From contig CAYIFA010000001.1 in NCBI GenBank assembly GCA_964362625.1, forward strand, positions 2,994-66,993: a stretch of 64,000 bases of DNA. Direction: 5' to 3'. The notes below the pieces were generated by a model. That model did not search any database and was not told the origin of the DNA. It saw nothing but the letters and a program-made list of their open reading frames with translations. Shown here in pieces: positions 1-16,430 of this stretch (positions are counted from its first letter, which is position 1; each line of letters begins with the position of its first letter). The position numbers and the translations under genes were made by a program. This stretch comes from an uncultured Candidatus Saccharibacteria bacterium (lineage in GTDB: Bacteria > Patescibacteriota > Minisyncoccia > 1-14-0-10-42-19).

Positions 1-930
1 ACCTTCGATCTTGCCCATCTCCCGTTCCAAACGTGAACGTTTGTCGCGTAATATAACCAATTCTTTCCTTGCGTTTTCCAACTCATCAAGAGACAGCTTA
101 TTCTTTTTTGATGATTCTTTATTTAAAGCCGCCTTCAGTTCCGACTGCTTCCGTTCAACTGCCCGCAGTTTTTCCTGCGGGTTTATTTTACGCTCTTTGG
201 TTGTCATTTCCTCATTCCTCAAATAGGCCGATTCTTTCTCGAAATAGGCGCAAAATTTTTCTTCCAACTCCCGCCGTATTGAAGTGGCGCGCTCAAATTT
301 TTCAACCTGATTTTTCAAAAATTTCACATGCGGCTGAATTTCTTTGCGCAAGCCCTCGGCTTGCTTTATATTTTCCTCTGATTTCTCCAACTTACGCTCT
401 GCCTCTTCATATTTTAAATGATACACTTTCAAGCCGAGCGCCTCTTCAATCATTTCTTTTCGTTCCGCTGAAGATACGTACAAGATGCGATCAGATTCGC
501 CCTGGCTGATTATGTTATGCTGTGAAGGCCCGATGCCAACTCCGGCCAAAAGTTCCGCCGTATCTTTCAAACGAGTAGGAGAGCCATTCAGCAAATATTC
601 GTTTTCCCCGTCGCGAAAAACCCTGCGGCCGATCGCCGCTTCGTCAAATTCCACATCGAAATGCTTCCTGGAATTATCAAAGACCAACACCACCTGCGCC
701 TTGGACATACGCGGCTCGGTAGCCGAGCCGGCGAATATTAAATCTTCGCCTTTTTTACTGCGCAGAGTTTTCATGGATTGCTCGCCTAACACCCAGCGCA
801 TTGCCTCGGCGCAATTAGATTTACCTGACCCGTTCGGACCAACAATCGCCGTCACCCTTGACGGAAACTGCAGGGCGGTCGGCCTGGCAAAGGATTTAAA
901 ACCAGAAATTTCCAAACGTTTTAAATACAT
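1..930 (-). CDS. smc: Chromosome segregation protein SMC, N-terminal fragment; the gene continues beyond the window edge
   Basis: Reverse-strand translation from the ATG at 930 gives MYLKRLEISGFKSFARPTALQFPSRVTAIVGPNGSGKSNCAEAMRWVLGEQS. This has the SMC N-terminal signature and a Walker A motif, followed by a long Lys/Glu-rich coiled coil with no stop before position 1. The ORF is absent from the supplied track because it has no in-window stop. The plus-strand ORFs 11..226, 69..509 and 485..940 are antisense to it. Confidence 0.8.
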   Translation of the reverse strand, partial: MYLKRLEISGFKSFARPTALQFPSRVTAIVGPNGSGKSNCAEAMRWVLGEQSMKTLRSKKGEDLIFAGSATEPRMSKAQVVLVFDNSRKHFDVEFDEAAIGRRVFRDGENEYLLNGSPTRLKDTAELLAGVGIGPSQHNIISQGESDRILYVSSAERKEMIEEALGLKVYHLKYEEAERKLEKSEENIKQAEGLRKEIQPHVKFLKNQVEKFERATSIRRELEEKFCAYFEKESAYLRNEEMTTKERKINPQEKLRAVERKQSELKAALNKESSKKNKLSLDELENARKELVILRDKRSRLEREMGKIEG

Positions 931-972
931 AATTCCTTAAATCCGAAATTCGAATATCGAAATACGAAACCG

Positions 973-1665
973 TTAGCCCCAACCTTTAATTTCGAGAGCG
1001 GCTCTAGCGGCATTTTCCTGTGCTGCCTGTTTAGACGGCCCATCACCCTCGGCGATTTTATCCTCCCCCAAAAACACACCCACCACAAACTGTTTATCGT
1101 GATCCGGACCCCATTCTTTCATGACTTCGTAATGCGGAGTGGTCGCATTGATTTCTTGGGCGCGCTCCTGAAAGAGGGACTTGGGATCGCGATAAAGTTT
1201 ACCGGAGATGATATCCGGCAATTCCGGCAGAATAAATTTAACCAGAAATTCTTTTGACGCCTTAAGCCCTTGGTCAAGGTAAATCGCGCCAACTACTGCC
1301 TCAAAAGCATTGGCCAGAATATATTGCCGGGCGCGGCCCTTATCCTTGGCCTCACCTCGGCTTAGCAATAAAAAATCCCCAAAACCAATCTTGTGGGCAA
1401 CTTCGGAAAGCATGTTGGCATTAACCAAGGCCGCCCGGAAGCTGGTTAGATCACCTTCCGGTTTATCCGGAAATTTTTTAAATAATTCTTCTGTGACTAC
1501 CAACTCTATCACGGCATCGCCGAGAAATTCCAAGCGTTCGTTATGCGCTACATCCCAAGAAGGATTTTCATTAAGATAGGAACGGTGAGTTAAGGCCTCT
1601 TTCAATAAGTCTTTATTTTTGAATTCAATATTGATCTTTTTCTCAAAACCAGAGAAGTCTGTCAT
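973..1665 (-). CDS. rnc: Ribonuclease III
   Basis: It has the ERLEFLGDAV catalytic signature and a C-terminal dsRNA-binding domain. Length is 230 aa. It lies immediately upstream of smc, the common rnc-smc arrangement. Confidence 0.9.
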   Translation of the reverse strand: MTDFSGFEKKINIEFKNKDLLKEALTHRSYLNENPSWDVAHNERLEFLGDAVIELVVTEELFKKFPDKPEGDLTSFRAALVNANMLSEVAHKIGFGDFLLLSRGEAKDKGRARQYILANAFEAVVGAIYLDQGLKASKEFLVKFILPELPDIISGKLYRDPKSLFQERAQEINATTPHYEVMKEWGPDHDKQFVVGVFLGEDKIAEGDGPSKQAAQENAARAALEIKGWG

Positions 1666-1671
1666 TTTTTT

Positions 1672-1740
1672 CGCGAATCACGAATCAAGAATTACGAATC
1701 ATGGACGCCATAATTCATAATTCATGATTCATTATTCAAT
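1672..1740. repeat. Short tandem and degenerate heptamer repeats (CGAATCA x3, then AATTCAT variants) in the rnc upstream/nusB downstream intergenic region
   Basis: The sequence reads cgcgaatcacgaatcaagaattacgaatca...aattcataattcatgattcattattcaa. Confidence 0.5.
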
Positions 1741-1742
1741 GT

Positions 1743-2633
1743 TTATTTTTGTAAAGTATTAATTGCCTTTTCTAATATCGGCCTGATATCCGGATAAATT
1801 TTTAATTCCGCAAGCTCGCGCGCGCTAAACCATCCGATATCATCCAATCCGCCGGAAGTGCCCAACTTCAATTTGCTTTCCGGAGTTTCGACCAGAAAAT
1901 AGGTAACTTTTCGGCGCACTGGACCGATTTTTGGATCAGAAGCAATATATTCATTTACGCCGATTTCACCCTCGAACTCTAACTGATTTAACCCGAGCTC
2001 TTCATTTAACTCGCGCTGGGTACCGGTGCGCACATCTTCGTTCTTCTCCAGATGGCCCTTAGACAGGGTCCAATAACCAAACACATCATGCACCATAGCG
2101 AATAGCAATCCGTCGCCCTCCACTCGATAAACCACTCCGCCGCCCAACTGTTCTTGTGGAAGCAGAGAAACGTCCTTAATATCTTTTTTCCGACCTACTT
2201 CATCTTTACCGGGTTCTCCAAGTTCGCGATAAACCGTCCCCAAAACGCCATTTACAAATCTACCGGACGAATCTCCGCCGAACGACTTAGCCAATTCAAT
2301 TGCCTCATTGATCGCGACTTTGGGCGGCACTTCGGACCGGTCACCGAATAATAATTCATAGAGTCCGACTCGCAAGACATTACGATCCACTCGCGCAATC
2401 TGGTTAATTGGCCATTCCGGCGCGGCTTTTTCCAAAACATCATCAATTTTCTTTCTCTTTTTCAGCGCGCCCTCAACAAGCTTGCGAACAAAATCATCGC
2501 CTTCCATACCTGGAGCGAATTCCTCCATGTCACGTTTGATAATTTCCGGGACCTTTTTATCGTCACAGCCGTTAAAGTCCCATTCGAAAAGGACTTGCAT
2601 CGCTATAGACCGGGCTAAGTGGCGGTTGGCCAT
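1743..2633 (-). CDS. nusB: NusB antitermination factor fused to a C-terminal NUDIX hydrolase domain
   Basis: The N-terminal 150 aa are collinear with NusB (KVAINEAIELAKSFG...FVNGVL). The C-terminal 140 aa carry a Nudix box (GHLEKNEDVRTGTQRELNEELGL). Confidence 0.8.
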   Translation of the reverse strand: MANRHLARSIAMQVLFEWDFNGCDDKKVPEIIKRDMEEFAPGMEGDDFVRKLVEGALKKRKKIDDVLEKAAPEWPINQIARVDRNVLRVGLYELLFGDRSEVPPKVAINEAIELAKSFGGDSSGRFVNGVLGTVYRELGEPGKDEVGRKKDIKDVSLLPQEQLGGGVVYRVEGDGLLFAMVHDVFGYWTLSKGHLEKNEDVRTGTQRELNEELGLNQLEFEGEIGVNEYIASDPKIGPVRRKVTYFLVETPESKLKLGTSGGLDDIGWFSARELAELKIYPDIRPILEKAINTLQK

Positions 2634-2704
2634 TTTGTAAAATAAAAGTACTAATTTCTTTAATTATCCTATAGATTAATTAGAATAATTTGGCTCTTAA
2701 AACT

Positions 2705-2986
2705 TTATTGCTTCGATAACTCAGCGGCGTCCATCCCTTTTTCAGCTTCTCCGGTTTCTTTTTGCGCCGTCAGTTCCTTTTCCTTTTTCTTCTTCTCCTT
2801 TTTTGTTAATTTCGCGAGAACATCAATAACCTCACGGCCCCTATACGAGCCGCAATTTTCACACACACGGTGTGGTATTTTAACCTGCCCGCATTTTTCG
2901 CATTTTGCATATGCTTTGGGATTTAAAGCATGATGCGATCTCCTCCGCCCGGTATGTGATCTAGTATGACGCATACGAATTGACAT
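2705..2986 (-). CDS. rpmF: 50S ribosomal protein bL32 with a Lys/Glu-rich C-terminal extension
   Basis: The N-terminus matches bL32 ([16 protein letters not shown]) and has the zinc-ribbon pair CEKCG...[12 protein letters not shown]. An extra tail of about 35 aa, [11 protein letters not shown]-rich, follows. Confidence 0.85.
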
Positions 2987-3017
2987 ATATATAAAATAAC
3001 AAATAACCGCGGCGATG

Positions 3018-3602
3018 TCAAAGGAATTTCCGGCAATACGATAAGCGGTGAATTTCAGAAACGCCGTACTGTTTTATCGCGGAAGAATGCGCTTTAGTGC
3101 CATAACCCTTGTGAATTTCAAAGCCATAATCAGGGTATTTTTGCGCAAGTTGCGCCATTTTGCGGTCGCGGACAACTTTGGCGATTATAGATGCCGCAGC
3201 AATAATTGGGATTTTTTCATCGCCTTTAATTATAGTTTGCTGGTTTTGATAAAAGTCCGGCGCGCTCAAACTGCCATCTAATTGTATTAAATATTTAGTA
3301 TCAAATATTGAGTACTTTTTACCCAAATCTCTTAAACAATTTTTTACTGCGCGACTCACTGCCTTCGAAATGCCAATTCTGTCTATGATCTTATGGCTAA
3401 CCGAAGAACGACTGATTAAAAATTGCCGGTCAAGACTCAACCTTTTAAACCACACTTCCCGCCGTTTTTGGGAAAGTTTTTTAGAATCTTTAATATTTTT
3501 TAATTTAAGAAAACTTTTTGCGGCAACCGCGGCAACCGTAACCGGCCCGGCCAAAGGTCCGCGGCCAGCTTCGTCAATACCAATAATGAATCTCCTTGCC
3601 AT
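3018..3602 (-). CDS. rnhB: Ribonuclease HII
   Basis: The [15 protein letters not shown]-terminal active-site motif is present. Length is 194 aa. Confidence 0.9.
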
Positions 3603-3623
3603 CTAAAAATTATAGCAAAATGA

Positions 3624-3650
3624 TGCGAGCCAGCTGAATGTCAGCTGGCT
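3624..3650 (-). terminator. Rho-independent terminator candidate
   Basis: A 10-bp perfect stem (gagccagctg / cagctggctc) with an aatgt loop, followed on the minus strand by a U-rich tract. Confidence 0.5.
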
Positions 3651-3659
3651 CTTAATACC

Positions 3660-3890
3660 TTATGAGGATGATCCTCTCCCCCTATAATAACTCTTCAGAT
3701 CACAGAAATACGCCGCGAGCTCTCCGAGAACCTCATCTCGGATCCTTGGCAATGCCGCCTCATTGATCGAAGCGCCACTCCTATTCCGAATTTCCGAACC
3801 GCTTATCCAGCGATCAAAAACTCGGTTGACTACTTCCTCTACTCCCGCTTCAATAGATGCACCGCCGCCACTGCTATCTATTACTCCCAT
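3660..3890 (-). CDS. Hypothetical small protein
   Basis: The ORF 3660..4025 overlaps the upstream dehydrogenase gene. Trimming to the internal Met (MGVIDSSGGG...) removes the overlap. No recognisable motif was found. Confidence 0.3.
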   Translation of the reverse strand: MGVIDSSGGGASIEAGVEEVVNRVFDRWISGSEIRNRSGASINEAALPRIRDEVLGELAAYFCDLKSYYRGRGSSS

Positions 3891-3960
3891 ATACTGCCCC
3901 CCTTTTAAAATCGATAATATTATAATACACCTTTTTATAAAAGTTGTCAACCGAGCTTGG

Positions 3961-4854
3961 TCAAGAAAATTTACGGAAATTCTGCTTTTTATTTTTAAGC
4001 CATTCCTGATCATGCATGCTGACATCTTCGGGAGTAAGCCCCTGTGTAGCTAAAATTGCTTCGTTGAATTTGCGATCGCGGTGGAATAAGGCGGCGGCTT
4101 CCGCAAGCCCGCAATTTTCGAGATGAGAAATTAAAGCGTCGGTGTCTTTTACGAAACAAAATCCGCCGTATCCGCGGTAACCACCGTGGTGTACATCAAG
4201 ATGCGAGTGTCCAATCCGTGAGTCAGCGCCAACTGCTTTACGAATATTCTCGAAATCGGCTTGATGGTACTTTGCTAAATCATAAACGGCATTAGCAAAG
4301 GTAATTTTTCTTGCCAAAAAGACATTCGCGGCATATTTTACGATTTCAGCTTCGGTCGCGCTCAAATTTAATGCGTTAGACGGCGACGCGAGCGGCGCTT
4401 TCGGCAAAAGCGATAAAACAATCGCGGCTGCCTCGCGACTGCCCAAAGTCCATCCAACCAATTGCCGCTCGGGCTTGATAAAATCCTGCCAAGCGGACTT
4501 TTCGGTGAGAAACTCCGGATTAAAAAATAGTTTGTGCTTTGGGTTAGCTTTTTGTAAACTTTCGGTAGTTCCGGGAGGTACAGTTGATTTTATAACCACA
4601 ATCTTAGAACCGCCTATTCCGGCTACTGCTTCCTCAACTATTGAAGTATCGGCAGAACCGTCTGCCCAACGCGGGCTTGGCACGCAAATGAAAATTACAT
4701 CGGCGCGATTAATATCGTCGGAAAATCGTTTGGCCGGATCTTTATCGTACAAAAACAAATTGCGCCCATGTTCATATGCCTTATCCTCGAACCATTTCTT
4801 AAGCGGCCCACCAACCATTCCGACCCCCACTATGCCGACTTTATATTTCATCAT
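3961..4854 (-). CDS. UDP-glucose/GDP-mannose dehydrogenase family protein, short form lacking the usual C-terminal nucleotide-sugar-binding domain
   Basis: An N-terminal Rossmann motif (KVGIVGVGMVGGPL) and the catalytic-Cys motif GGFCFVKD (compare GGSCFPKD in UGDH) are present. The start is trimmed to MMKYK. The protein is only about 297 aa. Confidence 0.65.
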   Translation of the reverse strand: MMKYKVGIVGVGMVGGPLKKWFEDKAYEHGRNLFLYDKDPAKRFSDDINRADVIFICVPSPRWADGSADTSIVEEAVAGIGGSKIVVIKSTVPPGTTESLQKANPKHKLFFNPEFLTEKSAWQDFIKPERQLVGWTLGSREAAAIVLSLLPKAPLASPSNALNLSATEAEIVKYAANVFLARKITFANAVYDLAKYHQADFENIRKAVGADSRIGHSHLDVHHGGYRGYGGFCFVKDTDALISHLENCGLAEAAALFHRDRKFNEAILATQGLTPEDVSMHDQEWLKNKKQNFRKFS

Positions 4855-4879
4855 ATTGAATATAATATTCCAAAATAAA

Positions 4880-4910
4880 TGCAAAAAAAAGAGGCTGGAT
4901 TAACCAGCCC
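4880..4910 (-). terminator. Rho-independent terminator downstream of NeuB paralog 1
   Basis: A ggctgg / ccagcc stem preceded on the plus strand by an A8 run, which gives a U-run on the minus strand. Confidence 0.6.
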
Positions 4911-4917
4911 CAATACT

Positions 4918-5928
4918 CTATTCAATATCTGTCCATCGGATAATGCTGTCTTCGGTTATGTTATGTTTGGCCCTCTGCCCAATAACTTTATAAAGAAACT
5001 TAGCCGGGATGCCGTCATATAGCGGCCGCTTGGTTGATATGTCTTCGACGCCAATAATTTTTCCGGCAGGGACATCCTTAACAGTCACTACGGCATGACG
5101 CGCCCATTCGATAATAGGTCGTTCCTCGGAGAAAATTATCTTTACATTACCGCGAGCTTTCTCAATTTTTCGTACGCCATCTACAAGCATTTTGAATTCG
5201 TGCCGCTCCAATGAAACTTTGTGATCGCTGGTTCCTACGGTATTTCTATTCAAGGTGTAATGCTTCTCGATCAACGAAACACCATACGGCACTGCCGCAA
5301 TCGCAGAGAATATTTCCGGAGTATGATCAGACAACCCCACCGCCACTCCATAACGTTCTCTCATTTTAGGAATGACCCCCAAGTTAAGCCGCTCATAAGG
5401 CGTCGGATAAATCGATATGCAATGAACCAACATAAACGGGGTGCCATATGACCCGACAAGCTCAACTGTCTCGGTTATCTCCTGATATCCGCTCATGCCG
5501 GTGGAAATAATCATTGGCTTGCCTTTTCTGGCAATGTGCTCGATGAACGGTAAATCGGTCATTTCGCCCGAGCCGATTTTGAACGCATCAACACCGATTT
5601 CTTCCAATTGGTCAGCGGCCTTACGCGAAAACGGCGTACACAAAAAGTAAAGTCCTTTTGTTTCAGCATAGCTCTTAAGGTCGGCCAATTGACCGATTGA
5701 TAACGAACGCTTCCCCTGCATGAAGAATTTAGGATGAGAACGAATCATCTCCTCTCTCGGGATATGCAGTTGGAACTTCACTGCGTCAACGCCGGTACTT
5801 TCGATTTCGTCAATCATCCGCTTGGCAACTTCAAAACTGCCTTCATGAGTATTGGCAACTTCGGCTACAATAAACACCGGCTCGAAATCACCAACGAGTT
5901 TCCTGCCGAGCCTGATTCGCTTTAACAC
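4918..5928 (-). CDS. NeuB-family nonulosonic acid synthase (N-acetylneuraminate/KDN/pseudaminate synthase-like), paralog 1
   Basis: It has a PEP-condensing TIM barrel (FIVAEVANTHEGS, KFQ) and a C-terminal SAF domain. Length is 336 aa. Confidence 0.85.
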   Translation of the reverse strand: MLKRIRLGRKLVGDFEPVFIVAEVANTHEGSFEVAKRMIDEIESTGVDAVKFQLHIPREEMIRSHPKFFMQGKRSLSIGQLADLKSYAETKGLYFLCTPFSRKAADQLEEIGVDAFKIGSGEMTDLPFIEHIARKGKPMIISTGMSGYQEITETVELVGSYGTPFMLVHCISIYPTPYERLNLGVIPKMRERYGVAVGLSDHTPEIFSAIAAVPYGVSLIEKHYTLNRNTVGTSDHKVSLERHEFKMLVDGVRKIEKARGNVKIIFSEERPIIEWARHAVVTVKDVPAGKIIGVEDISTKRPLYDGIPAKFLYKVIGQRAKHNITEDSIIRWTDIE

Positions 5929-5931
5929 TGT

Positions 5932-6810
5932 TTAATCCTCCTTGATGAGTAGTTTGTCCTTGGCATAATACCCGACACCAATCATCCCGGCCTTATTGCC
6001 GTAGCGAGCTTTTCTGACTTTGATCGGTTTACCGCTAAGACCCCTAACTTTTTTTTCAAGTTCTCGTTTGTAAAATGGAAAAAGCAATTCGGTAATGCCG
6101 CCACCCATAACAACCGTACTAATATCGAGCAAATTCACTGCGTTCTGAACGGCTAAAACAAAATAGGGGAATTCGTCGGCTTGCGCCTGCCACAGCCGCT
6201 GGAGCTTCTCTGTTTTAAGTTCGGGGATACTCAGACTTAAATTAAGCGCGATCGCCCGGCCCGAACATAGATCTTCGATGCTGTAGTAATATCTTTCGCG
6301 AGAATCATAAATTTTTCCGATGCCGAATTCCCCGGCAAAACCAAGTTCTCCCTCTACAAGTTGCCCGTCAAGAACTACTCCTCCTCCTATTCCAGTTCCA
6401 ATGGCTAAGAACAAAAAGTTCTTAGGCGCATTCCGGCTTGAAGATAACTCGCAATAGGCCGCCGCGGAAACGTCATTAAGCGCGATTACCTGCCATTGCG
6501 TGAGCGACCCGATTTTTTGGAAATCAAGTCTCTTTATAAATTGAAACGGTCTCCAAGCCACCACCTTATAATCTCTAGTGATGCCCCCAGTGCAGGCAAA
6601 AGCCAGAGCGCTTATGGCATTGTCGTAAGAATGGATCGTCTCCACCAAGAAATTTTCAAATTTCTTTTTATCAGTAAAAGGAGTAGTAGAGGCCGCGTCC
6701 AGATATTTAAACCGATAATCATCCGGACTAAAAAGCCCCGACTTTACCGAGGTCCCGCCAATGTCAAAACAGAGAATTGGTCGGTCATCAACCAGCACGC
6801 CAACCTCCAA
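5932..6810 (-). CDS. ROK/glucokinase-like ASKHA sugar kinase, candidate ManNAc or hexose 6-kinase
   Basis: A phosphate-1 motif (CFDIGGTSVKSG) and a ROK-like motif (LAIGTGIGGGVVLDGQLVEGELGFAGEFG) are present. No obvious CxCGxxGC zinc motif was found. Confidence 0.65.
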   Translation of the reverse strand: MEVGVLVDDRPILCFDIGGTSVKSGLFSPDDYRFKYLDAASTTPFTDKKKFENFLVETIHSYDNAISALAFACTGGITRDYKVVAWRPFQFIKRLDFQKIGSLTQWQVIALNDVSAAAYCELSSSRNAPKNFLFLAIGTGIGGGVVLDGQLVEGELGFAGEFGIGKIYDSRERYYYSIEDLCSGRAIALNLSLSIPELKTEKLQRLWQAQADEFPYFVLAVQNAVNLLDISTVVMGGGITELLFPFYKRELEKKVRGLSGKPIKVRKARYGNKAGMIGVGYYAKDKLLIKED

Positions 6811-6856
6811 TCAAACCGCATCAAGGCTCAATTTCTGCAAATAGTATAACTTATAT

Positions 6857-7570
6857 CTAGATGTTTTTCAACGCGCGCTCGGCTAAAGACCAATCTTCCG
6901 GTTCATCAACATCAACGGCATATTTTGCATCTATTATATATGGCGCCACATGCTCACCGAAAAAATTAGGTTCGGTTTCATCAAATATAAAATGAGTTTT
7001 TAACAAATAAATGGAAGTATTATTCCAATATGCTTTTGGCACAGCTTGACGCGGAACGATTCTATTTCTTACCGGATTGCCGTTGAAAAGCTGGAGCCCG
7101 CCTTTTTCATTGACTACCATCGCGCGGTGCGGACTAAAATGAACCGGCATTTCCGAAATTCCCAGGACCGAATCAGCGCCGCTATTTAAAAATAATTCTA
7201 CTGCCTCCTTGATGTGAAAATCCTGACGCAATGGCGAAGTCGGTTGCAGAATCATTACCGCATCCGGCCCATAGTTTTCATTCTCTGCGAGCCACTTGAG
7301 CGCATGTTGAACCACCGGCATGGTTGGCGTATCGTCTTTGGCCAGTTCGGCCGGCCGCATAAACGGGACTTCACAGCCATTTTGCTTAGCAACTTTCGCA
7401 ATAGCCTCATCGTCAGTAGTTAAAATAATCCGGTCAAGTGAAGCGGATTTTTTCGCGGCCTCAATGGTATAAACAACAAGGGGCTTTCCGGAGAGTAATT
7501 TTATGTTTTTACCCGGGATACCTTTTGATCCACCGCGCGCAGTGATAATGCCCAAAATTTTAGGATTCAT
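6857..7570 (-). CDS. Acylneuraminate cytidylyltransferase (CMP-NulO synthetase) family, paralog 1
   Basis: It has the ITARGGSKGIPGKN N-terminal motif and the PTSPLR motif, both typical of CMP-NeuAc and CMP-KDO synthetases. Confidence 0.85.
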   Translation of the reverse strand: MNPKILGIITARGGSKGIPGKNIKLLSGKPLVVYTIEAAKKSASLDRIILTTDDEAIAKVAKQNGCEVPFMRPAELAKDDTPTMPVVQHALKWLAENENYGPDAVMILQPTSPLRQDFHIKEAVELFLNSGADSVLGISEMPVHFSPHRAMVVNEKGGLQLFNGNPVRNRIVPRQAVPKAYWNNTSIYLLKTHFIFDETEPNFFGEHVAPYIIDAKYAVDVDEPEDWSLAERALKNI

Positions 7571-8729
7571 GAAACACTTTTTGTGTATAAAGTGGAATTT
7601 TACTTAAAATTCTTACAATATTTTCGCTTGTATTTGGTTTAAAATAGCCTTTAAAGCCGGGATATTTGCCATGCCGAAGCTGATATTTGATGGCGTCCGC
7701 AATTTTGGCTGAACCGTAATCTCCATCCACGTCGATCACGCTTGGAGCGCGCAAACGTCCGGCCTGGCGGCTACCGATATTTACCGTCGGCACACCCAAA
7801 AATGACGCTTCTTTTATTCCGGATGAAGAATTGCCAACAACAATCGCAGCCTTTCTCAAAAGCGCCACAAAGTCATCCGGCAATAAATCAATCATAAATC
7901 TTATATTCACTCCGGTGTCTCCGGATTTTTGGTCGTGAATTTCGCGTAACCTACGGGACATATCGGCAGTCCCGGCATCAATATTTGGCCAAAACCATAC
8001 CGCTGACAATTTAGCTCTAACTAATGCGTCGTATATCGCTTCAACTCCCCGCACATGATCGGCTTCGCTGGTTACCGGGTGAAACATCACCAGCGCAAAA
8101 GGTTTTTCGATGTCAACATTACCGCCCACTCCGCGTAAATTAGCGTATTCGGAAGTAATTTTTTTATTGGAATTTTTTATAAATTCTAAATCCGGCGAAC
8201 CGACATTAAAAACCATTTTAGGATTTTCGCCCATTTGAATCACATGTCTACGAGCCGCGTCATTGGTTACAAAATGAATATGCGAAAGTTTGGTTATCGC
8301 ATGCCTGACGCTTTCGTCAATGCTTCCCGTAACATCGCCCCCTTCAATGTGCGCGATAGTTTTATTAAGGTATGCGGCAGACATGGCCAGCGCCAGTTGT
8401 TCAAATCTGTCACCATGAATCAAAACTATATCCGGATTTAACTTTTCAAAAATATTTGAGGTTTCCAGGGCGATCAAAGCGGCAGTTTTTGCCATAGCTG
8501 CATGGTTGCCGCCTTCAATAACATTTAATAAACGCTCTTTAATATTGAAATTGGCGGCCTCAACATCGGCAAGAGCCTTCTCGCCGTAGCGCTCCAGCAT
8601 TATCGAGCCGCCTAAAATAACCTGCGGTTCAATTCTTGGATTTTTATGCAGTCGGGTCAACAACAATTTTATCCGCGCGTAATATGAGCGGCTCAATATC
8701 GGAATGCAAATTTTTCTCTTTTCGGCCAT
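7560..8729 (-). CDS. neuC: UDP-N-acetylglucosamine 2-epimerase, NeuC-like (hydrolysing type)
   Basis: A 389-aa GT-B epimerase fold with an HIEGG motif and wecB/neuC family architecture. It is in an operon with the CMP-NulO synthetase and NeuB genes. Confidence 0.75.
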   Translation of the reverse strand: MAEKRKICIPILSRSYYARIKLLLTRLHKNPRIEPQVILGGSIMLERYGEKALADVEAANFNIKERLLNVIEGGNHAAMAKTAALIALETSNIFEKLNPDIVLIHGDRFEQLALAMSAAYLNKTIAHIEGGDVTGSIDESVRHAITKLSHIHFVTNDAARRHVIQMGENPKMVFNVGSPDLEFIKNSNKKITSEYANLRGVGGNVDIEKPFALVMFHPVTSEADHVRGVEAIYDALVRAKLSAVWFWPNIDAGTADMSRRLREIHDQKSGDTGVNIRFMIDLLPDDFVALLRKAAIVVGNSSSGIKEASFLGVPTVNIGSRQAGRLRAPSVIDVDGDYGSAKIADAIKYQLRHGKYPGFKGYFKPNTSENIVRILSKIPLYTQKVFHES

Positions 8730-8811
8730 AACTTGACAATATGATTATATTTCAGCGAAATCTTCGTTATTTTCGTTATAATTAACTTACAATAAAAAAA
8801 CGTGAACCGCA

Positions 8812-8846
8812 ATAAAGAAAAGGCGGCTTGTCTGCTCAAGCCGCCT
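8812..8846 (-). terminator. Rho-independent terminator
   Basis: A 9-bp stem (aggcggctt / aagccgcct) with an 8-nt loop. It is flanked on the plus strand by aaagaaaa, giving a U-tract on the minus strand. Confidence 0.65.
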
Positions 8847-8853
8847 CTAGTGT

Positions 8854-8893
8854 TAAACCTAGGAGGTTTAACTATTAGACCTCCGAGGTTTAA
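8854..8893. repeat. REP-like imperfect palindromic element, family 1, copy A
   Basis: ttaaacctaggaggtttaa-ctat-tagacctccgaggtttaa. It shares the 5' 8 nt and the 3' 18 nt with the copy at 16387..16427. It lies immediately 3' of a minus-strand gene stop and before a canonical terminator. Confidence 0.7.
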
Positions 8894-8900
8894 TATGTAT

Positions 8901-10085
8901 TTACTTTTTCGCGAACTCTCGCAGGGTGCTGACAATCGCGCGGAGCGCGACGCCTTTTTCTGTTGGTTTTGGATAAAGCTGTTCTTGCTTTACCCTAAGT
9001 TCGCGGCACAAGACATTTCTCTGTTCTAGCAAATCAATAACGCTGTTAGCGATATATTGCGGTTCACCGCCAACATAGGAGGTAACTCCTTCTTCGACCA
9101 ATTCCCACTTGCCGCCAGAAACGCCCTTGAGTCGGACGCTTGTGGTAACATTTAAAAGGCTGATGACCGGCTTACGCTGGCAGACGGCCTCGATTTCAGT
9201 AGTAGAGGCAGGACCTATCAGTAAATCGCAGCCGGGAATCAAATCGGAAATTGAAACCTCTTTTGCTGATATTACTCTCGCCGGAATAGCATTCCATTTC
9301 ATCAATTCTTGATAGGACTTAACTCTGGACATTTCTTCAAAAGCAGTAAAAGTTTTTTCAACTTCTTTTTCATCCAAAGCGCGATTATCAGCATCCCTAT
9401 GCTTCGCGGCGTAATCTTTAATAAAGTTCCGCATACCATCATCCATCTCGACACGATCCCCTGGATGTCGGCTGAAAACCAATTGCCACTTACGTCGCCC
9501 AGTGACCATCCAATCCAAGTTGAAGGCCTCTAAAACACTGCTCCACATCGGCATGGTGATCGCTGATGGCTTATGCCCGACAACCAAAACAAACGTCTCA
9601 TCCAGCCGAATCCCGAGCTTGGCTCGCGACTCTTCGTATGACAGTTTCGGGAAATAAAACTCATCCCACAGCGGATTGCCGGAAGAAATAACTTTTGCTT
9701 TTAGAAAAACTTTCCGCGCCTCTCTGGCTTCCTTTTCACTCAAAACAAAAACAAAACTGGCATCAGCGCGAACACTCTCAAACCAATTACGGTTATGCGC
9801 GCAACCAAAGGTGTCGGCATAAAGTCCGTAAGGAATCCTAGCTTCGCGGGCAGCCATACACGACACAATTTCTTCTCTGGCAGTGTTGGCATTAGCCGAC
9901 ATACCTACCAGTAAAACATCTGCTGACCTTACAGCGGCAACAATCTTATCGTCAAGTACTTCAAGAGCTTTTCCTCTACCCAAAACCGGTATTACGCCGA
10001 ACTTTCCGGTTTCCAACAGCGAATCCCTGACCCTTTCGAACGCCTGCGACGGCGCGATGTCCCTAGCCACCAGCACTGCTCTCAT
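8901..10085 (-). CDS. GT-B fold glycosyltransferase-like protein (TagF/PseG-like), function unknown
   Basis: A Rossmann-like N-terminal half and a C-terminal GT-B motif (GPASTTEIEAVCQRKPVISL) are present, together with VLVVGHKPS and SRHPGD motifs reminiscent of the TagF family. It sits at the head of the neuC operon. Confidence 0.4.
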   Translation of the reverse strand: MRAVLVARDIAPSQAFERVRDSLLETGKFGVIPVLGRGKALEVLDDKIVAAVRSADVLLVGMSANANTAREEIVSCMAAREARIPYGLYADTFGCAHNRNWFESVRADASFVFVLSEKEAREARKVFLKAKVISSGNPLWDEFYFPKLSYEESRAKLGIRLDETFVLVVGHKPSAITMPMWSSVLEAFNLDWMVTGRRKWQLVFSRHPGDRVEMDDGMRNFIKDYAAKHRDADNRALDEKEVEKTFTAFEEMSRVKSYQELMKWNAIPARVISAKEVSISDLIPGCDLLIGPASTTEIEAVCQRKPVISLLNVTTSVRLKGVSGGKWELVEEGVTSYVGGEPQYIANSVIDLLEQRNVLCRELRVKQEQLYPKPTEKGVALRAIVSTLREFAKK

Positions 10086-10131
10086 CAGCTAACTCTCCTT
10101 TTTGATTTTCAACTCCGCTAGTATTATACCC

Positions 10132-10187
10132 AAAACAAAAGCCCCGTCAAGATTTGGCGGGGCGCTTACACTTCGGAAGTGTAAAGT
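10132..10187 (-). terminator. Tandem hairpins 3' of the Gfo/Idh/MocA gene (stop-proximal palindrome plus rho-independent terminator)
   Basis: A 9-bp palindrome (cttacacttcggaagtgtaag) overlaps the stop codon. A gccccg...cggggc hairpin follows, with an aaaacaaaa run on the plus strand (U-run on minus). Confidence 0.55.
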
Positions 10188-11311
10188 TATCCATAGTAAG
10201 CTTTATTAAGGATTCTCATTACTTCTAAACCGGAGCGGTAAGACAAAGGCGACTCGCAAGGATTAGTTGCTTTAAGCAGTGAATCGTAATGCTGGACTTC
10301 GTAATAAAAATCATCTGGACGGGTTTTAGGGAAAATCTCAACAACCTTCCGATTTTCTGTTTCGTACTTAACAACATCACCAGCCGGGTCGCCATTACAA
10401 TGCCATTCGAGCCAACCTTTTGTCCCTTGAACCCGCGCCCACTTGCGCGGCGGTTTGGTAACGACGTCCTGAGTTACATGCCCCACTCTTCCTTTGTTCA
10501 TCTGCATTATAAAATGGGCAATCCGGTCATATTCCACACGCTGCGATCCGGCTAAATCACTTACTACATTCAATTTACGTACCAAGTCGCAAAGTCCATA
10601 GCTTTCACCCGGCCACCACCATGCCCATGAGGCCAATTTCAGAAACAAATGCAAAGCGTGAGAATGCTCGTTGCCCGCTCCTCCGCCGCGGCGCCAATAG
10701 CCCAGATAGCTATCCTGCAGCCCAGATAGCCACGGATGCGCTTTAAAAGCCCCTTCCCAGTGCTCACGAAATTCAACGTCAATGGTTAAGATCTCACCAA
10801 ACTCTCCGCCATCACCCTTTCTCTCTTCAATCCGATTTTCATTAAGAAGATCGGCAACACGACGAATGCTGTTCGAAACCGCGTGATTGTAACCAACTGT
10901 TACAATCGTATCCGGATACTTTTTCATTTCGGCTTCAAATTCGGCAACACCTGTGAGGTTCGGAGTGCAGAGTGGTTTTTCTAGGTGCAGGAGTCTTGGG
11001 TTTTTCTTGATTTCTTCAATCGCCAGCTTCATCCGCACATCCGGAGGAGTAGTGATCATGATGATATCGAATCTATCAGGAATCGCATCTCCAGTCCTGT
11101 AGTCCTCAAATTGCGATGCGCCGCCAACCCCATCTGACAAAAATAGCCCTATCGTAAGATCAACTATTTGATAGCGGTCACTATAAATCCGGCGAAAACG
11201 ATCCAAAGCGCGTACACTCGTATCTACCACGGAAACCCGCCAGCCCATCCTGCAACACGCTTGCGCCAAATGGATCCCGGCCGAACCAGCCCCGATGATT
11301 TTTACGTTCAC
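10187..11311 (-). CDS. Gfo/Idh/MocA family NAD(P)-dependent sugar oxidoreductase
   Basis: It has a Rossmann motif (MNVKIIGAGSAGIH) and the family EKP motif (LHLEKPLC). Confidence 0.75.
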   Translation of the reverse strand: MNVKIIGAGSAGIHLAQACCRMGWRVSVVDTSVRALDRFRRIYSDRYQIVDLTIGLFLSDGVGGASQFEDYRTGDAIPDRFDIIMITTPPDVRMKLAIEEIKKNPRLLHLEKPLCTPNLTGVAEFEAEMKKYPDTIVTVGYNHAVSNSIRRVADLLNENRIEERKGDGGEFGEILTIDVEFREHWEGAFKAHPWLSGLQDSYLGYWRRGGGAGNEHSHALHLFLKLASWAWWWPGESYGLCDLVRKLNVVSDLAGSQRVEYDRIAHFIMQMNKGRVGHVTQDVVTKPPRKWARVQGTKGWLEWHCNGDPAGDVVKYETENRKVVEIFPKTRPDDFYYEVQHYDSLLKATNPCESPLSYRSGLEVMRILNKAYYG

Positions 11312-11964
11312 TCGTCCGATTCCTTTCTAGTTATGATTTCGGGAACATCACGAACCGAATCAATCGTAACAAATTTTTCGTTTTTCGTCCAGTTAGTAAA
11401 ACCGCTCAATATTCCGATGAAAAAACAGCCATAAGCTTCGGCGGCTACGCGATCCGGTTCGCCATCTCCAACAAAGACGGTCTGATTGCCACCAACTTGT
11501 TCAAGAGCAAAAATCTTTTCAAGTGCGCTTTCCTTGGTCTCCGGTCGCCCAAAAATTTCGGCAAAAAACTTCCCTATCCCGAGATTGTCAACGCTTTCAC
11601 CCAACGCCTCAATGGGGGTGGAGGAATTTAAATAAAGTTTGTACTTTTTTGACAATTCCTCGAGCGCCTCCCAAACTCCGCCAATCAACCCTTTCCGTAA
11701 AATACCGGTTTGCGTAATTTGGTTATATTTTTCGGCGTGTGCCCGAATAAGCGTTATCCGCTCAGCATCTCGGCGCCCCAATGCCCTAAAGATCTCATCT
11801 AAAATTACATATCTGGTTCGGACCGCGACTTTCGGAAATAGTTCAAGCGCTACCTGCTTTTCATTCTCCGGCAAATCGCCAAAGACGTCGGACCAAGCCT
11901 CGTCTTTTATACGATTGGAATCAACCAGCACGCCGTCAAAATCAAATACTATGACCTTGAACAT
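11308..11964 (-). CDS. HAD-superfamily phosphatase, candidate NulO-9-phosphate phosphatase
   Basis: HAD motif I (VFDFDGVLVDS) and motif IV (GDGEPD) are present. It overlaps the upstream gene by 4 nt and lies between NeuB-family genes. Confidence 0.8.
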   Translation of the reverse strand: MFKVIVFDFDGVLVDSNRIKDEAWSDVFGDLPENEKQVALELFPKVAVRTRYVILDEIFRALGRRDAERITLIRAHAEKYNQITQTGILRKGLIGGVWEALEELSKKYKLYLNSSTPIEALGESVDNLGIGKFFAEIFGRPETKESALEKIFALEQVGGNQTVFVGDGEPDRVAAEAYGCFFIGILSGFTNWTKNEKFVTIDSVRDVPEIITRKESDE

Positions 11965-12023
11965 AAAACCCTCCGGTAAGCTGATGTTCTTTATCTAGCG
12001 AGATAATAATATTTCCCGAAACT

Positions 12024-13568: not shown

Positions 13569-14302
13569 TAACTATGCAATCGCTTTTTCATTAGAATTTC
13601 CGCAACTTCAAAATCAAGAGTACTGTCAATGTTTATCGAATCCTCCGGATTCATAAAAAAATAGGCAACTTTTTCGCCGGAAGTAGATTTTAAATCGCGA
13701 ATTGTATTGAGCCGCATAACATCCATTGCTCCGGTATGGACATAAACTTTCGGGAGCATTTGGCGCGGGAGGTTATACGGCTCATCCATTTTGGTGATGG
13801 TTTTCGGTAAAAACGGCTCCATGATTGCCGAGCTCCCGATTGTTTGCCACATTTTATAAGGATGCTTGGGTGATTCGGTTATCGGCCGACAGGAATCGGC
13901 ATCAGGATTATTCAAAAGCTTTTGAATGCCCTGATCAATATGCGCCGCAGTCCTAAGCGGTGAGGTCGGCGGCAGGCGTAAAACAATATCTGGCTCGTAA
14001 TCTTCTTTCTTCTTTAAAAAATCAAGCGCGTGGTTTAAAAATTCTACGTCGGTCGCGAGATCGCCGGAGATTTCCGCAGGGCGCAAAAACGGGACTTCTC
14101 CTCCATATTTTTCGGCAACCTTTGCGATTTCTTCGCTATCGGTTGAAATAATAAGTCGCGTCAAAAGATTTGATTGCTTTGCAATTTCAATAGTCCAAGC
14201 AATCAATGGCTTACCGGCTAAATTTCGTATATTTTTCCCGGGCACGCCCTTGGATCCGCCGCGCGCGGGAATAATTCCTAAAATCTCCATTTTTTTCATC
14301 AA
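13568..14302 (-). CDS. Acylneuraminate cytidylyltransferase (CMP-NulO synthetase) family, paralog 2
   Basis: IPARGGSKGVPGKN and PPTSPLR motifs are present. It overlaps NeuB paralog 2 by 1 nt, which suggests translational coupling. Confidence 0.85.
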   Translation of the reverse strand: MMKKMEILGIIPARGGSKGVPGKNIRNLAGKPLIAWTIEIAKQSNLLTRLIISTDSEEIAKVAEKYGGEVPFLRPAEISGDLATDVEFLNHALDFLKKKEDYEPDIVLRLPPTSPLRTAAHIDQGIQKLLNNPDADSCRPITESPKHPYKMWQTIGSSAIMEPFLPKTITKMDEPYNLPRQMLPKVYVHTGAMDVMRLNTIRDLKSTSGEKVAYFFMNPEDSINIDSTLDFEVAEILMKKRLHS

Positions 14303-16427: not shown

Positions 16428-16430
16428 CTT

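What the first reader, a model, noticed from the sequence alone, without database searches (positions are those of the whole stretch)
1743..2633. NusB fused in-frame to a NUDIX hydrolase
A single 296-aa ORF joins a near-canonical NusB domain (KVAINEAIELAKSFG is nearly identical to E. coli NusB) to a C-terminal NUDIX domain with an intact Nudix box. Coupling an rRNA antitermination factor to a nucleotide pyrophosphohydrolase, which could be an (p)ppGpp, NDP-sugar or RNA-cap hydrolase, is an unusual architecture. It suggests a regulatory link between transcription antitermination and nucleotide pools.
Basis: seen in the sequence. Interest (0 to 1): 0.5.

Follow-up and report, generated by a model that had tools for sequence, protein, structure and literature searches.

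The report
NusB with tethered Ap4A-hydrolase-type Nudix domain
This groundwater ultra-small bacterium (Paceibacteria, candidate phyla radiation) and hundreds of related species make their rRNA transcription factor NusB as one protein with a flexibly tethered nucleotide-binding Nudix domain; the fusion is real and conserved but nobody has tested what it does.

Summary
Window 1743..2633 (minus strand) is one 296-aa ORF with a true NusB domain (TIGR01951 above its cut-off) and a complete Nudix domain with a perfect Nudix box.

It is not a sequencing artefact. The identical protein occurs in two other independent assemblies, and at least 270 species-representative genomes encode full-length relatives. 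All named ones are Paceibacteria/Parcubacteria. In 80 of 80 loci examined, rnc (RNase III) lies just downstream. Ca. Portnoybacteria keep the same rpmF-nusB-rnc locus with a plain 143-aa NusB, so the Nudix domain was added in a subclade.

By sequence and by predicted fold, the Nudix half is a diadenosine-polyphosphate (Ap4A/Ap6A) hydrolase type, not a ppGpp or NDP-sugar type. AlphaFold predicts two rigid domains joined by a disordered linker of about 20 residues.

Across the family, most members have lost catalytic glutamates, through at least 25 state changes on a tree. The adenine-stacking and phosphate-binding pocket residues stay over 90% conserved.

My best reading is that NusB holds an adenine-polyphosphate-binding module beside the boxA leader RNA. 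In this protein the module is probably also hydrolytic. The ligand (pre-rRNA 5' end or free ApnA/ATP) is inferred, not shown. I rate it a new variant of a known kind, of moderate interest.

The parts
1743..2633 (-). Complete nusB::nudix ORF (296 aa plus stop codon)
   Evidence: ORF list. Pfam finds NusB and NUDIX. The identical protein is on two independent assemblies.
2220..2633 (-). NusB domain, residues 1-138, seven helices
   Evidence: TIGR01951 scores 128 bits against a cut-off of 88. Nearest solved sequence is T. maritima NusB 1tzt, E 3e-21. The model matches Aquifex NusB 3r2d_B with TM 0.86. It is 37% identical to E. coli NusB.
2256..2258 (-). Codon of F126, the equivalent of the boxA-stacking Phe122 of E. 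coli and Aquifex NusB
   Evidence: Alignments. The role of F122 is from PMC3177189. F126 is 100% conserved in 52 diverse fusion proteins.
2157..2219 (-). Interdomain linker, residues 139-159, containing the conserved GEPGKDE motif
   Evidence: pLDDT is below 50 for residues 140-152 and pTM is 0.55. G139, E140, P141 and K143 are invariant in alignment A1. The motif is absent from stand-alone Portnoybacteria NusB.
1746..2156 (-). Nudix domain, residues 160-296, diadenosine-polyphosphate hydrolase type
   Evidence: Pfam NUDIX. Best PDB sequence hits are CT771, Ndx1 and Ap4A hydrolases. Foldseek gives TM 0.81-0.89 to 3i7u, 4mpo and 1vc8.
1989..2057 (-). Nudix box, residues G193-L215 (GHLEKNEDVRTGTQRELNEELGL), with all catalytic residues present
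   Evidence: Read from the sequence. E208 aligns with E58 of human NUDT2, which is the residue mutated in PDB 4ijx.
1947..1949 (-). Codon of Y229, the adenine-stacking and P1-phosphate Tyr (equivalent to NUDT2 Y82), 14 residues after the box as in CT771
   Evidence: Alignments. The role is from PMC4734340 and PMC5389931. It is 92-95% conserved in both box classes.
1794..1796 (-). Codon of Y280, the second adenine-stacking aromatic (equivalent to NUDT2 F128). D282, two residues on, aligns with E130.
   Evidence: Alignment. The role is from PMC4734340. Y280 is 96-100% conserved.
973..1665 (-). rnc (RNase III), immediately downstream and probably co-transcribed
   Evidence: ORF. An rnc homologue lies just downstream in 80 of 80 related loci. 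Pfam Ribonuclease_3 is recorded on the identical contig.
2705..2986 (-). rpmF (ribosomal protein L32), immediately upstream
   Evidence: It is upstream in 54 of 80 loci. The same order is found beside stand-alone nusB in Portnoybacteria.
3018..3602 (-). rnhB (RNase HII), further upstream in the conserved neighbourhood
1..930 (-). 5' part of smc, downstream of rnc, running off the start of the window
   Evidence: Translation. The same rnc-smc order is seen in locus L086.

Best explanation
This gene is the organism's orthologous nusB. In a large subclade of Paceibacteria it has acquired a C-terminal Nudix domain of the diadenosine-polyphosphate (ApnA) hydrolase type, joined by a flexible tether of about 20 residues.

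Shown here. Both domains are complete. The fusion is ancient and conserved. It sits in a conserved rpmF-nusB::nudix-rnc(-smc) gene string. The NusB half keeps the residues that contact boxA RNA. The Nudix half keeps the Lys, Tyr, Tyr and Asp residues that in Ap4A hydrolases hold the phosphate chain and sandwich the adenine. In this protein it also keeps every catalytic residue.

Inferred. NusB pairs with S10 on the boxA element of the nascent rRNA leader, as in other bacteria. The tether leaves from the end of the boxA-binding helix alpha7, so the Nudix pocket is held next to the leader RNA at the RNA exit of RNA polymerase. There it captures an adenine nucleotide carrying a 5' polyphosphate. 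The most likely ligand is the 5' terminus of the pre-rRNA (pppA... or an Np4A-type cap). The alternative is free ApnA or ATP. In members with an intact box, such as this one, the domain probably hydrolyses the ligand, acting like an RppH or ApnA hydrolase. That would prepare the leader for 5'-end-dependent processing alongside RNase III cleavage. More than half of the family has lost the catalytic glutamates but kept the pocket, so the function conserved across the family is binding rather than hydrolysis.
For: - Architecture and reality of the fusion.
- Orthology with nusB: TIGR01951 scores above its cut-off. The locus is the same rpmF-nusB-rnc string that holds the stand-alone nusB of Portnoybacteria. 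No second NusB or Nudix copy was found in the window or in about 0.9 Mb of related flanks.
- NusB function residues: F126 aligns with F122 and D83 with E81, and there is a 15/15 identical block with E. coli helix alpha6.
- ApnA-hydrolase type: PDB sequence hits are CT771, Ndx1 and NUDT2. Foldseek gives TM 0.81-0.89 to aq_158, CT771 and Ndx1.
- Pocket residues: K192 aligns with K42, Y229 with Y82, Y280 with F128, and D282 with E130 of NUDT2. Their roles are from PMC4734340 and PMC5389931.
- Flexible tether: pLDDT is below 50 for residues 140-152 and pTM is 0.55. The same is seen in a second family member.
- Link to RNA processing: rnc is immediately downstream in 80 of 80 loci, often with overlapping stop and start.
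- Binding rather than catalysis: only 55 of 133 non-redundant members keep E199, R207, E208, E211 and E212, with at least 25 state changes on a tree. In the 77 degenerate members, D183, W188, K192, Y229, Y245, W268, Y280 and D282 stay 91-96% conserved, while E208 falls to 13%. A third sample gives 33 of 117 intact. A member with no box glutamate still models as an Ap4A-hydrolase fold with pLDDT about 95.
- Precedents: RppH removes ppp and Np4N from RNA 5' ends and binds Ap4A in the same site (PMC9283932). CF Im25 is a Nudix protein lacking two glutamates that binds Ap4A without hydrolysing it, within an RNA-processing factor (PMC2425470).
Against: - No experiment or RNA data bear on the ligand. 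The RNA 5'-end idea rests on the fusion partner and on gene neighbourhood only.
- E. coli RppH is only a distant structural match (rank 50), and the RppH equivalog HMMs score far below their cut-offs.
- Conserved aromatic residues could partly reflect fold stability rather than ligand contact.
- AlphaFold shows no defined interdomain geometry, so the claim that the pocket sits next to the RNA rests only on the tether length.
- Neither a boxA element nor an rRNA leader could be examined.
- Whether these organisms have other RppH, ApaH or YqeK enzymes is unknown.
Confidence: 0.45

Rival explanations
1. The domain is a small-molecule sensor or hydrolase. It binds, and in intact members degrades, free diadenosine polyphosphates or ATP. 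Occupancy of the pocket modulates NusB assembly into the antitermination complex, coupling rRNA synthesis to a stress alarmone or to energy state.
For: The closest relatives by sequence and fold are enzymes that act on free Ap4A or Ap6A. The adenine and phosphate pocket is conserved even where catalysis is lost, as in ligand-sensing Nudix domains. NrtR appears among the fold hits, and CF Im25 binds Ap4A with a Kd of 2.4 uM without hydrolysis.
Against: AlphaFold predicts no interdomain contact through which occupancy could be transmitted (pTM 0.50-0.55). Nothing links ApnA to NusB in any studied system. The conserved operon partner is an RNA-processing enzyme, which fits an RNA ligand better.
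Confidence: 0.25
2. The fusion has no functional coupling. A housekeeping ApnA hydrolase gene became fused to nusB during genome streamlining, and each half works independently.
For: CPR genomes are compact, with overlapping genes. The linker is flexible and the domains do not pack against each other. This protein's catalytic site is intact.
Against: A housekeeping hydrolase should keep its catalytic glutamates, yet 56-72% of members have lost them and still retain the domain and its pocket. The fusion is kept down to 33% identity and always at the same locus. No stand-alone close relative of this Nudix appears among the 150 best representatives, apart from apparent fragments. The linker motif is conserved.
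Confidence: 0.13
3. The domain is a structural accessory. The Nudix fold acts as a built-in protein or RNA-chaperone subunit of the rRNA antitermination complex, independent of any nucleotide ligand, much as the enzyme-fold protein SuhB does in E. coli.
For: SuhB is an inositol-monophosphatase-fold protein that is an integral rrnTAC subunit, binds leader RNA and is needed to recruit NusB/S10 (PMC6614801). The repeated loss of catalytic residues fits this. Some lineages replace the Nudix helix with Lys/Glu-rich insertions.
Against: The residues that stay most conserved are exactly the ligand-contact positions of Ap4A hydrolases (K192, Y229, Y280, D282). A ligand-free scaffold would not need them.
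Confidence: 0.12
4. The fusion is an artefact. A sequencing or assembly error merged two adjacent genes, or the N-terminal half is an RsmB-like RNA-binding domain rather than a true NusB.
For: None was found. A priori, metagenome assemblies do contain frameshift errors, and NusB-like domains do occur in RsmB (weak RsmB hits).
Against: The identical ORF is present in two independent assemblies. At least 270 species genomes have full-length matches. The linker is conserved. The RsmB models score 55 bits or less against cut-offs of 269 or more, while the nusB equivalog passes. There is no methyltransferase domain.
Confidence: 0.02

Closest known systems
Stand-alone bacterial NusB (E. coli, Aquifex, Thermotoga; TIGR01951 / PF01029)
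   Same: Residues 1-138 form a full NusB. It passes the equivalog HMM and models as the seven-helix fold (TM 0.86 to 3r2d_B). It keeps the boxA-contact Phe (F126, equivalent to F122) and an acidic residue at the E81 position, and has a 15-residue block identical to E. coli. It lies in the same rpmF-nusB-rnc locus as stand-alone nusB in Ca. Portnoybacteria.
   Different: It carries about 160 extra C-terminal residues (linker plus Nudix domain). No characterised NusB has a catalytic or ligand-binding appendage.
Nudix diadenosine-polyphosphate hydrolases: Chlamydia CT771 (NudH), Thermus Ndx1 (Ap6A), Aquifex aq_158, human NUDT2, C. elegans Ap4A hydrolase, M. tuberculosis Rv2985
   Same: These are the best sequence and fold matches. 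The Nudix box is perfect. The Lys before the box, the Tyr 14 residues after it (the same spacing as CT771), the second stacking aromatic and the acidic adenine-N6 contact are all present.
   Different: Those enzymes are free-standing, or fused to other domains in MutT1/Rv2985. This one is tethered to an RNA-binding transcription factor. Most of its orthologues have lost catalytic glutamates, which is not a feature of the characterised hydrolases.
RppH / NudH RNA 5' pyrophosphohydrolase and Np4A-decapping enzyme
   Same: It is a Nudix enzyme related to ApnA hydrolases. It acts on 5'-ppp, 5'-pp and Np4N-capped RNA and binds Ap4A in the active site (PMC9283932). This is the activity proposed here for the tethered domain.
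   Different: It is only a distant match (Foldseek rank 50; RppH HMMs score 15-19 bits against cut-offs of 116-139). RppH finds its RNA by itself or with DapF, not through a fused boxA-binding domain.
RsmB (Sun/Fmu) 16S rRNA methyltransferase
   Same: It is the one well-known architecture in which a NusB-fold domain is fused to an enzyme that acts on rRNA. This is a precedent for using the NusB fold as an RNA-targeting module.
   Different: The RsmB N-terminal domain is a diverged NusB-like fold, and the enzyme is a SAM methyltransferase. Here the NusB is the genuine orthologue and the partner is a Nudix domain. The RsmB HMMs are far below their cut-offs.
Non-catalytic Nudix domains: CF Im25 (NUDT21) and NrtR
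   Same: These are Nudix folds that have lost box glutamates yet bind Ap4A/ATP (CF Im25, within a pre-mRNA 3'-processing factor) or ADP-ribose (NrtR, a transcription regulator). They parallel the pocket-conserved, catalysis-lost majority of this family.
   Different: This window's protein has all its glutamates. Neither CF Im25 nor NrtR is fused to NusB, and they belong to other Nudix subfamilies.
SuhB in the E. coli rRNA antitermination complex
   Same: It is a small-molecule-phosphatase-fold protein recruited as an integral subunit next to NusB/S10 on the rrn leader RNA (PMC6614801).
   Different: SuhB has a different fold (inositol monophosphatase), is a separate polypeptide and binds NusA AR2. 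There is no evidence that the Nudix domain replaces it.

Membership tests
NusB (TIGR01951 / PF01029) | Scores above the curated equivalog HMM threshold | tested here: met
   TIGR01951 scores 128.4 bits against a cut-off of 88.35. PF01029 scores 121 bits against 23.1.
NusB (TIGR01951 / PF01029) | All-helical NusB fold | tested here: met
   The AF2 model has seven helices over residues 2-138 with pLDDT of about 85-93. Foldseek gives TM 0.86 and rmsd 2.1 A to Aquifex NusB 3r2d_B.
NusB (TIGR01951 / PF01029) | Conserved boxA-contact residues (Phe122 stacking on U8; acidic residue at position 81) | tested here: met
   F126 aligns with F122 and is 100% conserved in the family. D83 aligns with E81, a conservative change that is also D in T. 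maritima.
NusB (TIGR01951 / PF01029) | Occupies the orthologous nusB locus as the only copy | tested here: inconclusive
   It lies in the same rpmF-nusB-rnc string as stand-alone nusB in Portnoybacteria. No second copy is present in the 64-kb window or in the flanks of 86 loci. Whole genomes could not be searched.
NusB (TIGR01951 / PF01029) | Binds S10 (NusE) and boxA RNA and supports rrn antitermination | not testable with these tools
   This needs biochemistry or genetics.
Nudix hydrolase superfamily (PF00293) | Nudix fold and the Nudix box GX5EX7REUXEEXGU | tested here: met
   PF00293 scores 53 bits against a cut-off of 21. The box G193...L215 is perfect. The alpha/beta/alpha fold is modelled with high confidence. 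At family level only 28-44% of members keep the catalytic residues.
Diadenosine-polyphosphate (ApnA) hydrolase subfamily of Nudix | Closest sequence and structure relatives are ApnA hydrolases | tested here: met
   CT771 is hit at 5e-11 and Ndx1 at 3e-8, followed by NUDT2 and aq_158. The top Foldseek hits are 3i7u, 4mpo and 1vc8.
Diadenosine-polyphosphate (ApnA) hydrolase subfamily of Nudix | Adenine-stacking Tyr/Phe about 14-17 residues after the box, plus a second stacking aromatic and the Lys preceding the box | tested here: met
   Y229 lies 14 residues after L215, the same spacing as in CT771, and aligns with NUDT2 Y82. Y280 aligns with F128 and K192 with K42. The rule and the roles are from PMC2425470, PMC4734340 and PMC5389931.
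Diadenosine-polyphosphate (ApnA) hydrolase subfamily of Nudix | Mg-dependent hydrolysis of Ap4A-Ap6A | not testable with these tools
   An enzyme assay is required.
RppH (RNA pyrophosphohydrolase, NF001936-8) | Scores above the equivalog HMM threshold | tested here: not met
   The best RppH model scores 19.3 bits against a cut-off of 118. E. coli RppH 7sp3 is Foldseek rank 50. The protein may work like RppH but is not a member of that family.
RsmB (TIGR00563) | NusB-like N-terminal domain plus a SAM-dependent m5C methyltransferase domain | tested here: not met
   RsmB models score 55 bits or less against cut-offs of 269-540, and only over the NusB part. No methyltransferase domain is present.
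Non-catalytic Nudix (CF Im25 / NrtR-like) | Loss of metal-binding glutamates in the Nudix box with a retained ligand pocket | tested here: not met
   It is not met for this protein, which has all its glutamates. It is met for 77 of 133 family members.

The most novel reading that the evidence does not exclude
In Paceibacteria the rRNA antitermination complex has a built-in 'reader' of adenine-polyphosphate groups. The NusB-tethered Nudix pocket would grasp the 5'-triphosphate or Np4A-capped end of the nascent pre-rRNA while NusB holds boxA. That would clamp the 5' end at the RNA exit to guide co-transcriptional folding and RNase III processing, with hydrolysis an optional extra step kept in some lineages, including this one. 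Alternatively the pocket could gate NusB by alarmone binding. Either way this would be a previously unknown class of accessory module for Nus-factor complexes, functionally comparable to SuhB but ligand-dependent.
Probability: 0.3. Interest if true: 0.75.

Novelty: new variant of a known kind. Interest (0 to 1): 0.5.

Why it matters
NusB is a core, normally single-domain factor of bacterial rRNA transcription antitermination and co-transcriptional rRNA folding. Here a whole class of candidate-phyla-radiation bacteria makes it with a tethered nucleotide-polyphosphate-binding domain. The domain's pocket has been preserved through repeated loss of catalysis, and the gene always sits beside RNase III.

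This points to an undescribed step in rRNA synthesis or maturation in organisms that are abundant but almost unstudied. The step would be either recognition or trimming of the transcript's 5' end, or nucleotide sensing.

The family also offers a natural series of active and inactive Nudix variants in one fixed context, which makes the question directly testable with recombinant protein. Finally, public annotation calls these proteins simply 'NusB' and hides the second domain.

Tried and rejected
- Sequencing-error explanation: rejected on independent assemblies and hundreds of orthologues.
- RsmB-like interpretation of the N-terminal half: rejected by HMM scores.
- MutT, GDP-mannose hydrolase, NudC, ADP-ribose pyrophosphatase and RppH as the identity of the Nudix half: all are weaker than ApnA hydrolases by sequence and by fold.
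- Search for an rRNA operon or boxA in the window: there is no Rfam hit and no tRNA in 64 kb, so the leader could not be studied.
- Search for a stand-alone orthologue of the Nudix half, or a split nusB/nudix gene pair: the short hits (P0232, P0195, P0259) start inside the linker or helix alpha7 and look like fragments. Portnoybacteria have no such Nudix within 5 kb of nusB.
- Taxon names for the divergent representatives via cluster look-up: no organism names were returned.
- Foldseek against AFDB, to look for independent NusB-Nudix fusions in other phyla: the library was unavailable.
- Literature: three full-text searches and a search of the Nudix-clan review found no mention of a NusB-Nudix protein. 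The Ge et al. 2013 paper on NUDT2 E58A is not held, so the effect of that mutation is not cited.
- Interdomain packing: AlphaFold gave none in either of the two family members modelled.
Full report
**1. Observation**

Window 1743..2633 holds a single 296-aa ORF on the minus strand, starting with ATG. Pfam finds NusB at residues 7-136 (E 5e-35) and NUDIX at 176-288 (E 4e-14). The NCBIfam nusB equivalog TIGR01951 scores 128 bits against a cut-off of 88. RsmB, RppH, MutT and other Nudix equivalogs are all far below their cut-offs.

The Nudix box, G193-HLEKNEDVRTGTQRELNEELG-L215, matches GX5EX7REUXEEXGU at every defined position.

**2. The fusion is not an artefact**

- The exact 296-aa protein is encoded on two other ENA assemblies. 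These are replicate Hainich H51 0.1-um groundwater samples, and both contigs show the same neighbouring genes.
- All 120 best relatives among 5.8 billion proteins (61-85% identity, full length) carry both domains. They come from Ca. Niyogibacteria, Giovannonibacteria and other Patescibacteria metagenome-assembled genomes (MAGs), and the sources name them only 'NusB'.
- A scan of one genome per GTDB species found 270 genomes encoding a relative. That count comes from patterns specific to close relatives only. The 80 loci kept all cover essentially the whole protein (at least residues 1-284; most reach 294-296). Their titles span Niyogi-, Giovannoni-, Nomura-, Kaiser-, Campbell-, Vogel- and Zambryskibacteria, Paceibacterota and Minisyncoccia.
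- A filter-free phmmer search of 1.84 billion 50%-identity representatives gave about 60 full-length fusion clusters (53 were usable for alignment), down to 33% identity.
- Relatives of the most divergent member are again labelled Paceibacterota or Parcubacteria.

**3. Locus and origin**

In the window the minus strand reads rnhB (3018..3602), rpmF (2705..2986), nusB::nudix, rnc (973..1665), then smc (from 930, running off the window). A promoter-like site lies just upstream of rpmF. No convincing terminator lies between rpmF and rnc on that strand; the one terminator-like match there falls inside the rpmF coding sequence.

An RNase III gene lies immediately downstream of the fusion in 80 of 80 related loci. 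L32 is upstream in 54 of 80. The most divergent member, P0166, has the same rnhB..rpmF-nusB::nudix-rnc-smc order on a 657-kb contig, with rnc overlapping the fusion's stop codon.

Ca. Portnoybacteria also belong to the Parcubacteria. Their NusB is 63% identical to the NusB half of the query by tblastn. They have a 143-aa stand-alone NusB in the same rpmF-nusB-rnc string, followed by rpsP, a KH-domain gene and trmD. There is no Nudix gene nearby.

The fused gene is therefore the nusB orthologue, and the Nudix domain was added at its 3' end in a subclade. No second NusB or related Nudix is present in the 64-kb window or in about 0.9 Mb of related flanks. Whole genomes could not be checked.

**4. 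The two halves**

*NusB half.* The nearest solved sequences are T. maritima, Aquifex and E. coli NusB. The AlphaFold model has seven helices and superposes on Aquifex NusB from the NusB-NusE-RNA complex with TM 0.86. In the Aquifex complex, F122 stacks on boxA U8, and the E. coli F122D mutant is defective (PMC3177189). Its equivalent here, F126, is 100% conserved in the fusion family. E81 corresponds to D83.

*Nudix half.* The best PDB sequence hits are:
- Chlamydia CT771, solved with hydrolysed Ap4A (E 5e-11);
- Thermus Ndx1, an Ap6A hydrolase;
- human NUDT2 and the Aquifex Ap4A hydrolase.

Foldseek ranks Aquifex aq_158, CT771 and Ndx1 first (TM 0.81-0.89, rmsd about 2 A). Next come mycobacterial MutT1/Rv2985 ('Nudix diadenosine polyphosphatase'), NUDT2 and the C. 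elegans Ap4A hydrolase. E. coli RppH bound to Ap4A is rank 50.

I aligned the domain to NUDT2, using a sequence verified as identical to 3u53. The equivalences are:

| This protein | NUDT2 | Role in NUDT2 |
|---|---|---|
| K192 | K42 | binds the P1 phosphate |
| Y229 | Y82 | binds the P1 phosphate and stacks on adenine |
| Y280 | F128 | second adenine-stacking residue |
| D282 | E130 | contacts adenine N6 |
| E208 | E58 | residue mutated in PDB 4ijx |

The roles are taken from PMC4734340 and PMC5389931. Y229 lies 14 residues after the box, exactly as in CT771. This fits the rule of a 'Tyr/Phe downstream of the box' in ApnA hydrolases (PMC2425470). The domain is therefore an ApnA-hydrolase-type Nudix, not a ppGpp, NDP-sugar or MutT type.

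**5. How the halves are joined**

AlphaFold gives two confident domains. Residues 140-152 have pLDDT below 50 and pTM is 0.55. A second family member gives the same picture, with pTM 0.50.

The join is therefore a flexible tether that leaves from the end of helix alpha7, the boxA-binding helix. The tether nevertheless contains a strongly conserved motif, YRE-x-GEPGKD-[ED]. The motif is absent from stand-alone NusB. This is unexplained; it may be a docking peptide.

**6. Family-level pattern**

This is the most informative result. Three separate samples show that the catalytic signature is often lost.

| Sample | Members keeping the catalytic signature |
|---|---|
| 120 closest homologues | 82 have a strict box; the 'RE' Glu (E208 position) is K or R in 24 |
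| 52 diverse representatives | E208 kept in 13, E211 in 28, E212 in 39 |
| 133 non-redundant members | 55 keep E199, R207, E208, E211 and E212; at least 25 parsimony changes on a neighbour-joining tree |
| 117 relatives of P0166 | 33 intact |

The 133-member set combines one sequence per species with the 50% representatives.

The loss is confined to the catalytic residues. In the 77 members with a degenerate box:
- E208 falls to 13%, E196 to 38%, E211 to 58% and R207 to 61%;
- D183, F185, W188, T189, K192, Y229, Y245, W268, Y280 and D282 stay at 91-96%, the same as in the intact class.

P0166 has the box KRVIKDKLA, with no glutamate. It still models as a Nudix domain with pLDDT of about 95, and its best structural matches are again Ap4A hydrolases. 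The NusB half is more conserved than the Nudix half, with mean pairwise identity of 54% against 42%.

Selection has therefore maintained the fold and its adenine-polyphosphate pocket, but not metal-dependent hydrolysis. Published precedents for such Nudix domains exist. CF Im25 lacks two box glutamates, binds Ap4A with a Kd of 2.4 uM without hydrolysing it, and is part of an RNA-processing factor (PMC2425470). NrtR is among the fold hits.

**7. Most likely mechanism**

Shown: the anatomy, conservation, synteny and pocket type described above.

Inferred: NusB-S10 binds boxA on the nascent rRNA leader, which is established for E. coli and Aquifex. The tether then keeps the Nudix pocket within a few nanometres of that RNA, at the RNA exit of the polymerase. 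The pocket binds an adenine nucleotide carrying a 5' polyphosphate.

I favour the 5' end of the leader (pppA... or an Np4A-type cap) as the ligand, for three reasons:
- the partner domain is a sequence-specific RNA binder;
- the invariant neighbour is the pre-rRNA processing enzyme RNase III;
- ApnA-hydrolase relatives such as RppH act on exactly such RNA ends and bind Ap4A in the same site (PMC9283932).

In this protein every catalytic residue is present, so hydrolysis is likely. Across the family, binding is the constant.

Confidence in the whole model is about 0.45. My own component estimates are:
- the architecture is real and orthologous to nusB: above 0.95;
- the pocket is of ApnA type: about 0.75;
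- the ligand is an RNA 5' end: about 0.35.

The rivals are a free ApnA/ATP sensor or hydrolase (0.25), an uncoupled housekeeping hydrolase (0.13), a ligand-independent structural subunit analogous to SuhB (0.12; PMC6614801), and an artefact (0.02).

**8. Comparison with known systems, and novelty**

The protein is a member of the NusB family and of the Nudix superfamily. It meets every sequence and structure criterion that I could test for the ApnA-hydrolase subfamily. It is not a member of RppH or RsmB.

The architecture has a conceptual parallel in RsmB, where a NusB-like fold is joined to an rRNA-modifying enzyme. The antitermination complex has a parallel in SuhB, an enzyme-fold subunit.

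Full-text searches found no paper describing a NusB-Nudix protein. The comprehensive review of the Nudix clan does not mention NusB. The sequences are public but annotated only as NusB.

I rate it a new variant of a known kind, with interest 0.5. It is a conserved and mechanistically suggestive modification of a core transcription factor across a major uncultivated lineage, with a clear experimental path. No functional evidence exists yet.

Noticed in passing
window 2199..2231 (residues 135-145 of the fusion): The linker motif Y-R-E-x-G-E-P-G-K-D-[ED] is invariant or nearly so across the closer family. AlphaFold nevertheless predicts it to be disordered. It is absent from stand-alone Portnoybacteria NusB and from the most divergent fusion, P0166. 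It may be a docking peptide.
   Followed up: partly
window 2705..2986 (-): Ribosomal protein L32 (rpmF) is 93 aa long, with a Lys/Glu-rich C-terminal tail of about 35 residues. That is much longer than the typical bacterial L32.
   Followed up: no
window about 3961..8729 (-): A gene cluster for a nonulosonic (sialic-acid-like) sugar: UDP-glucose/GDP-mannose dehydrogenase family, NeuB+SAF, ROK kinase, CMP-sugar cytidylyltransferase (CTP_transf_3) and UDP-GlcNAc 2-epimerase. The Pfam labels are taken from the identical ENA contig L084. This is notable for a reduced CPR genome.
   Followed up: no
window 1..64000: No tRNA gene and no Rfam family is detected anywhere in the 64 kb. Nearly all long ORFs lie on the minus strand.
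   Followed up: partly
proteins P0133, P0140, P0149, P0213, P0225, P0243: Some relatives have NusB plus the GEPGK linker followed by unrelated C-terminal tails. Some AT-rich lineages have long Lys/Glu-rich insertions where the Nudix catalytic helix should be. These may be further decay of the domain, or assembly chimeras.
   Followed up: no
loci L006, L008, L009, L058 and others; protein P0519: Many records that carry this Paceibacteria-type gene are titled 'uncultured Candidatus Saccharibacteria'. One is titled Flavobacteriaceae and one Bacteriovoracia. These are probably placeholder or mis-binned labels rather than real occurrences outside Paceibacteria.
   Followed up: no
window 3660..4025 (-) and L084 4744..4974: A small ORF with no Pfam hit lies between rnhB and the sugar cluster. 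It is called as 76 aa on the identical contigs. The terminator-like hairpin at 3651..3627 (-) lies just downstream of it and separates it from rnhB.
   Followed up: no
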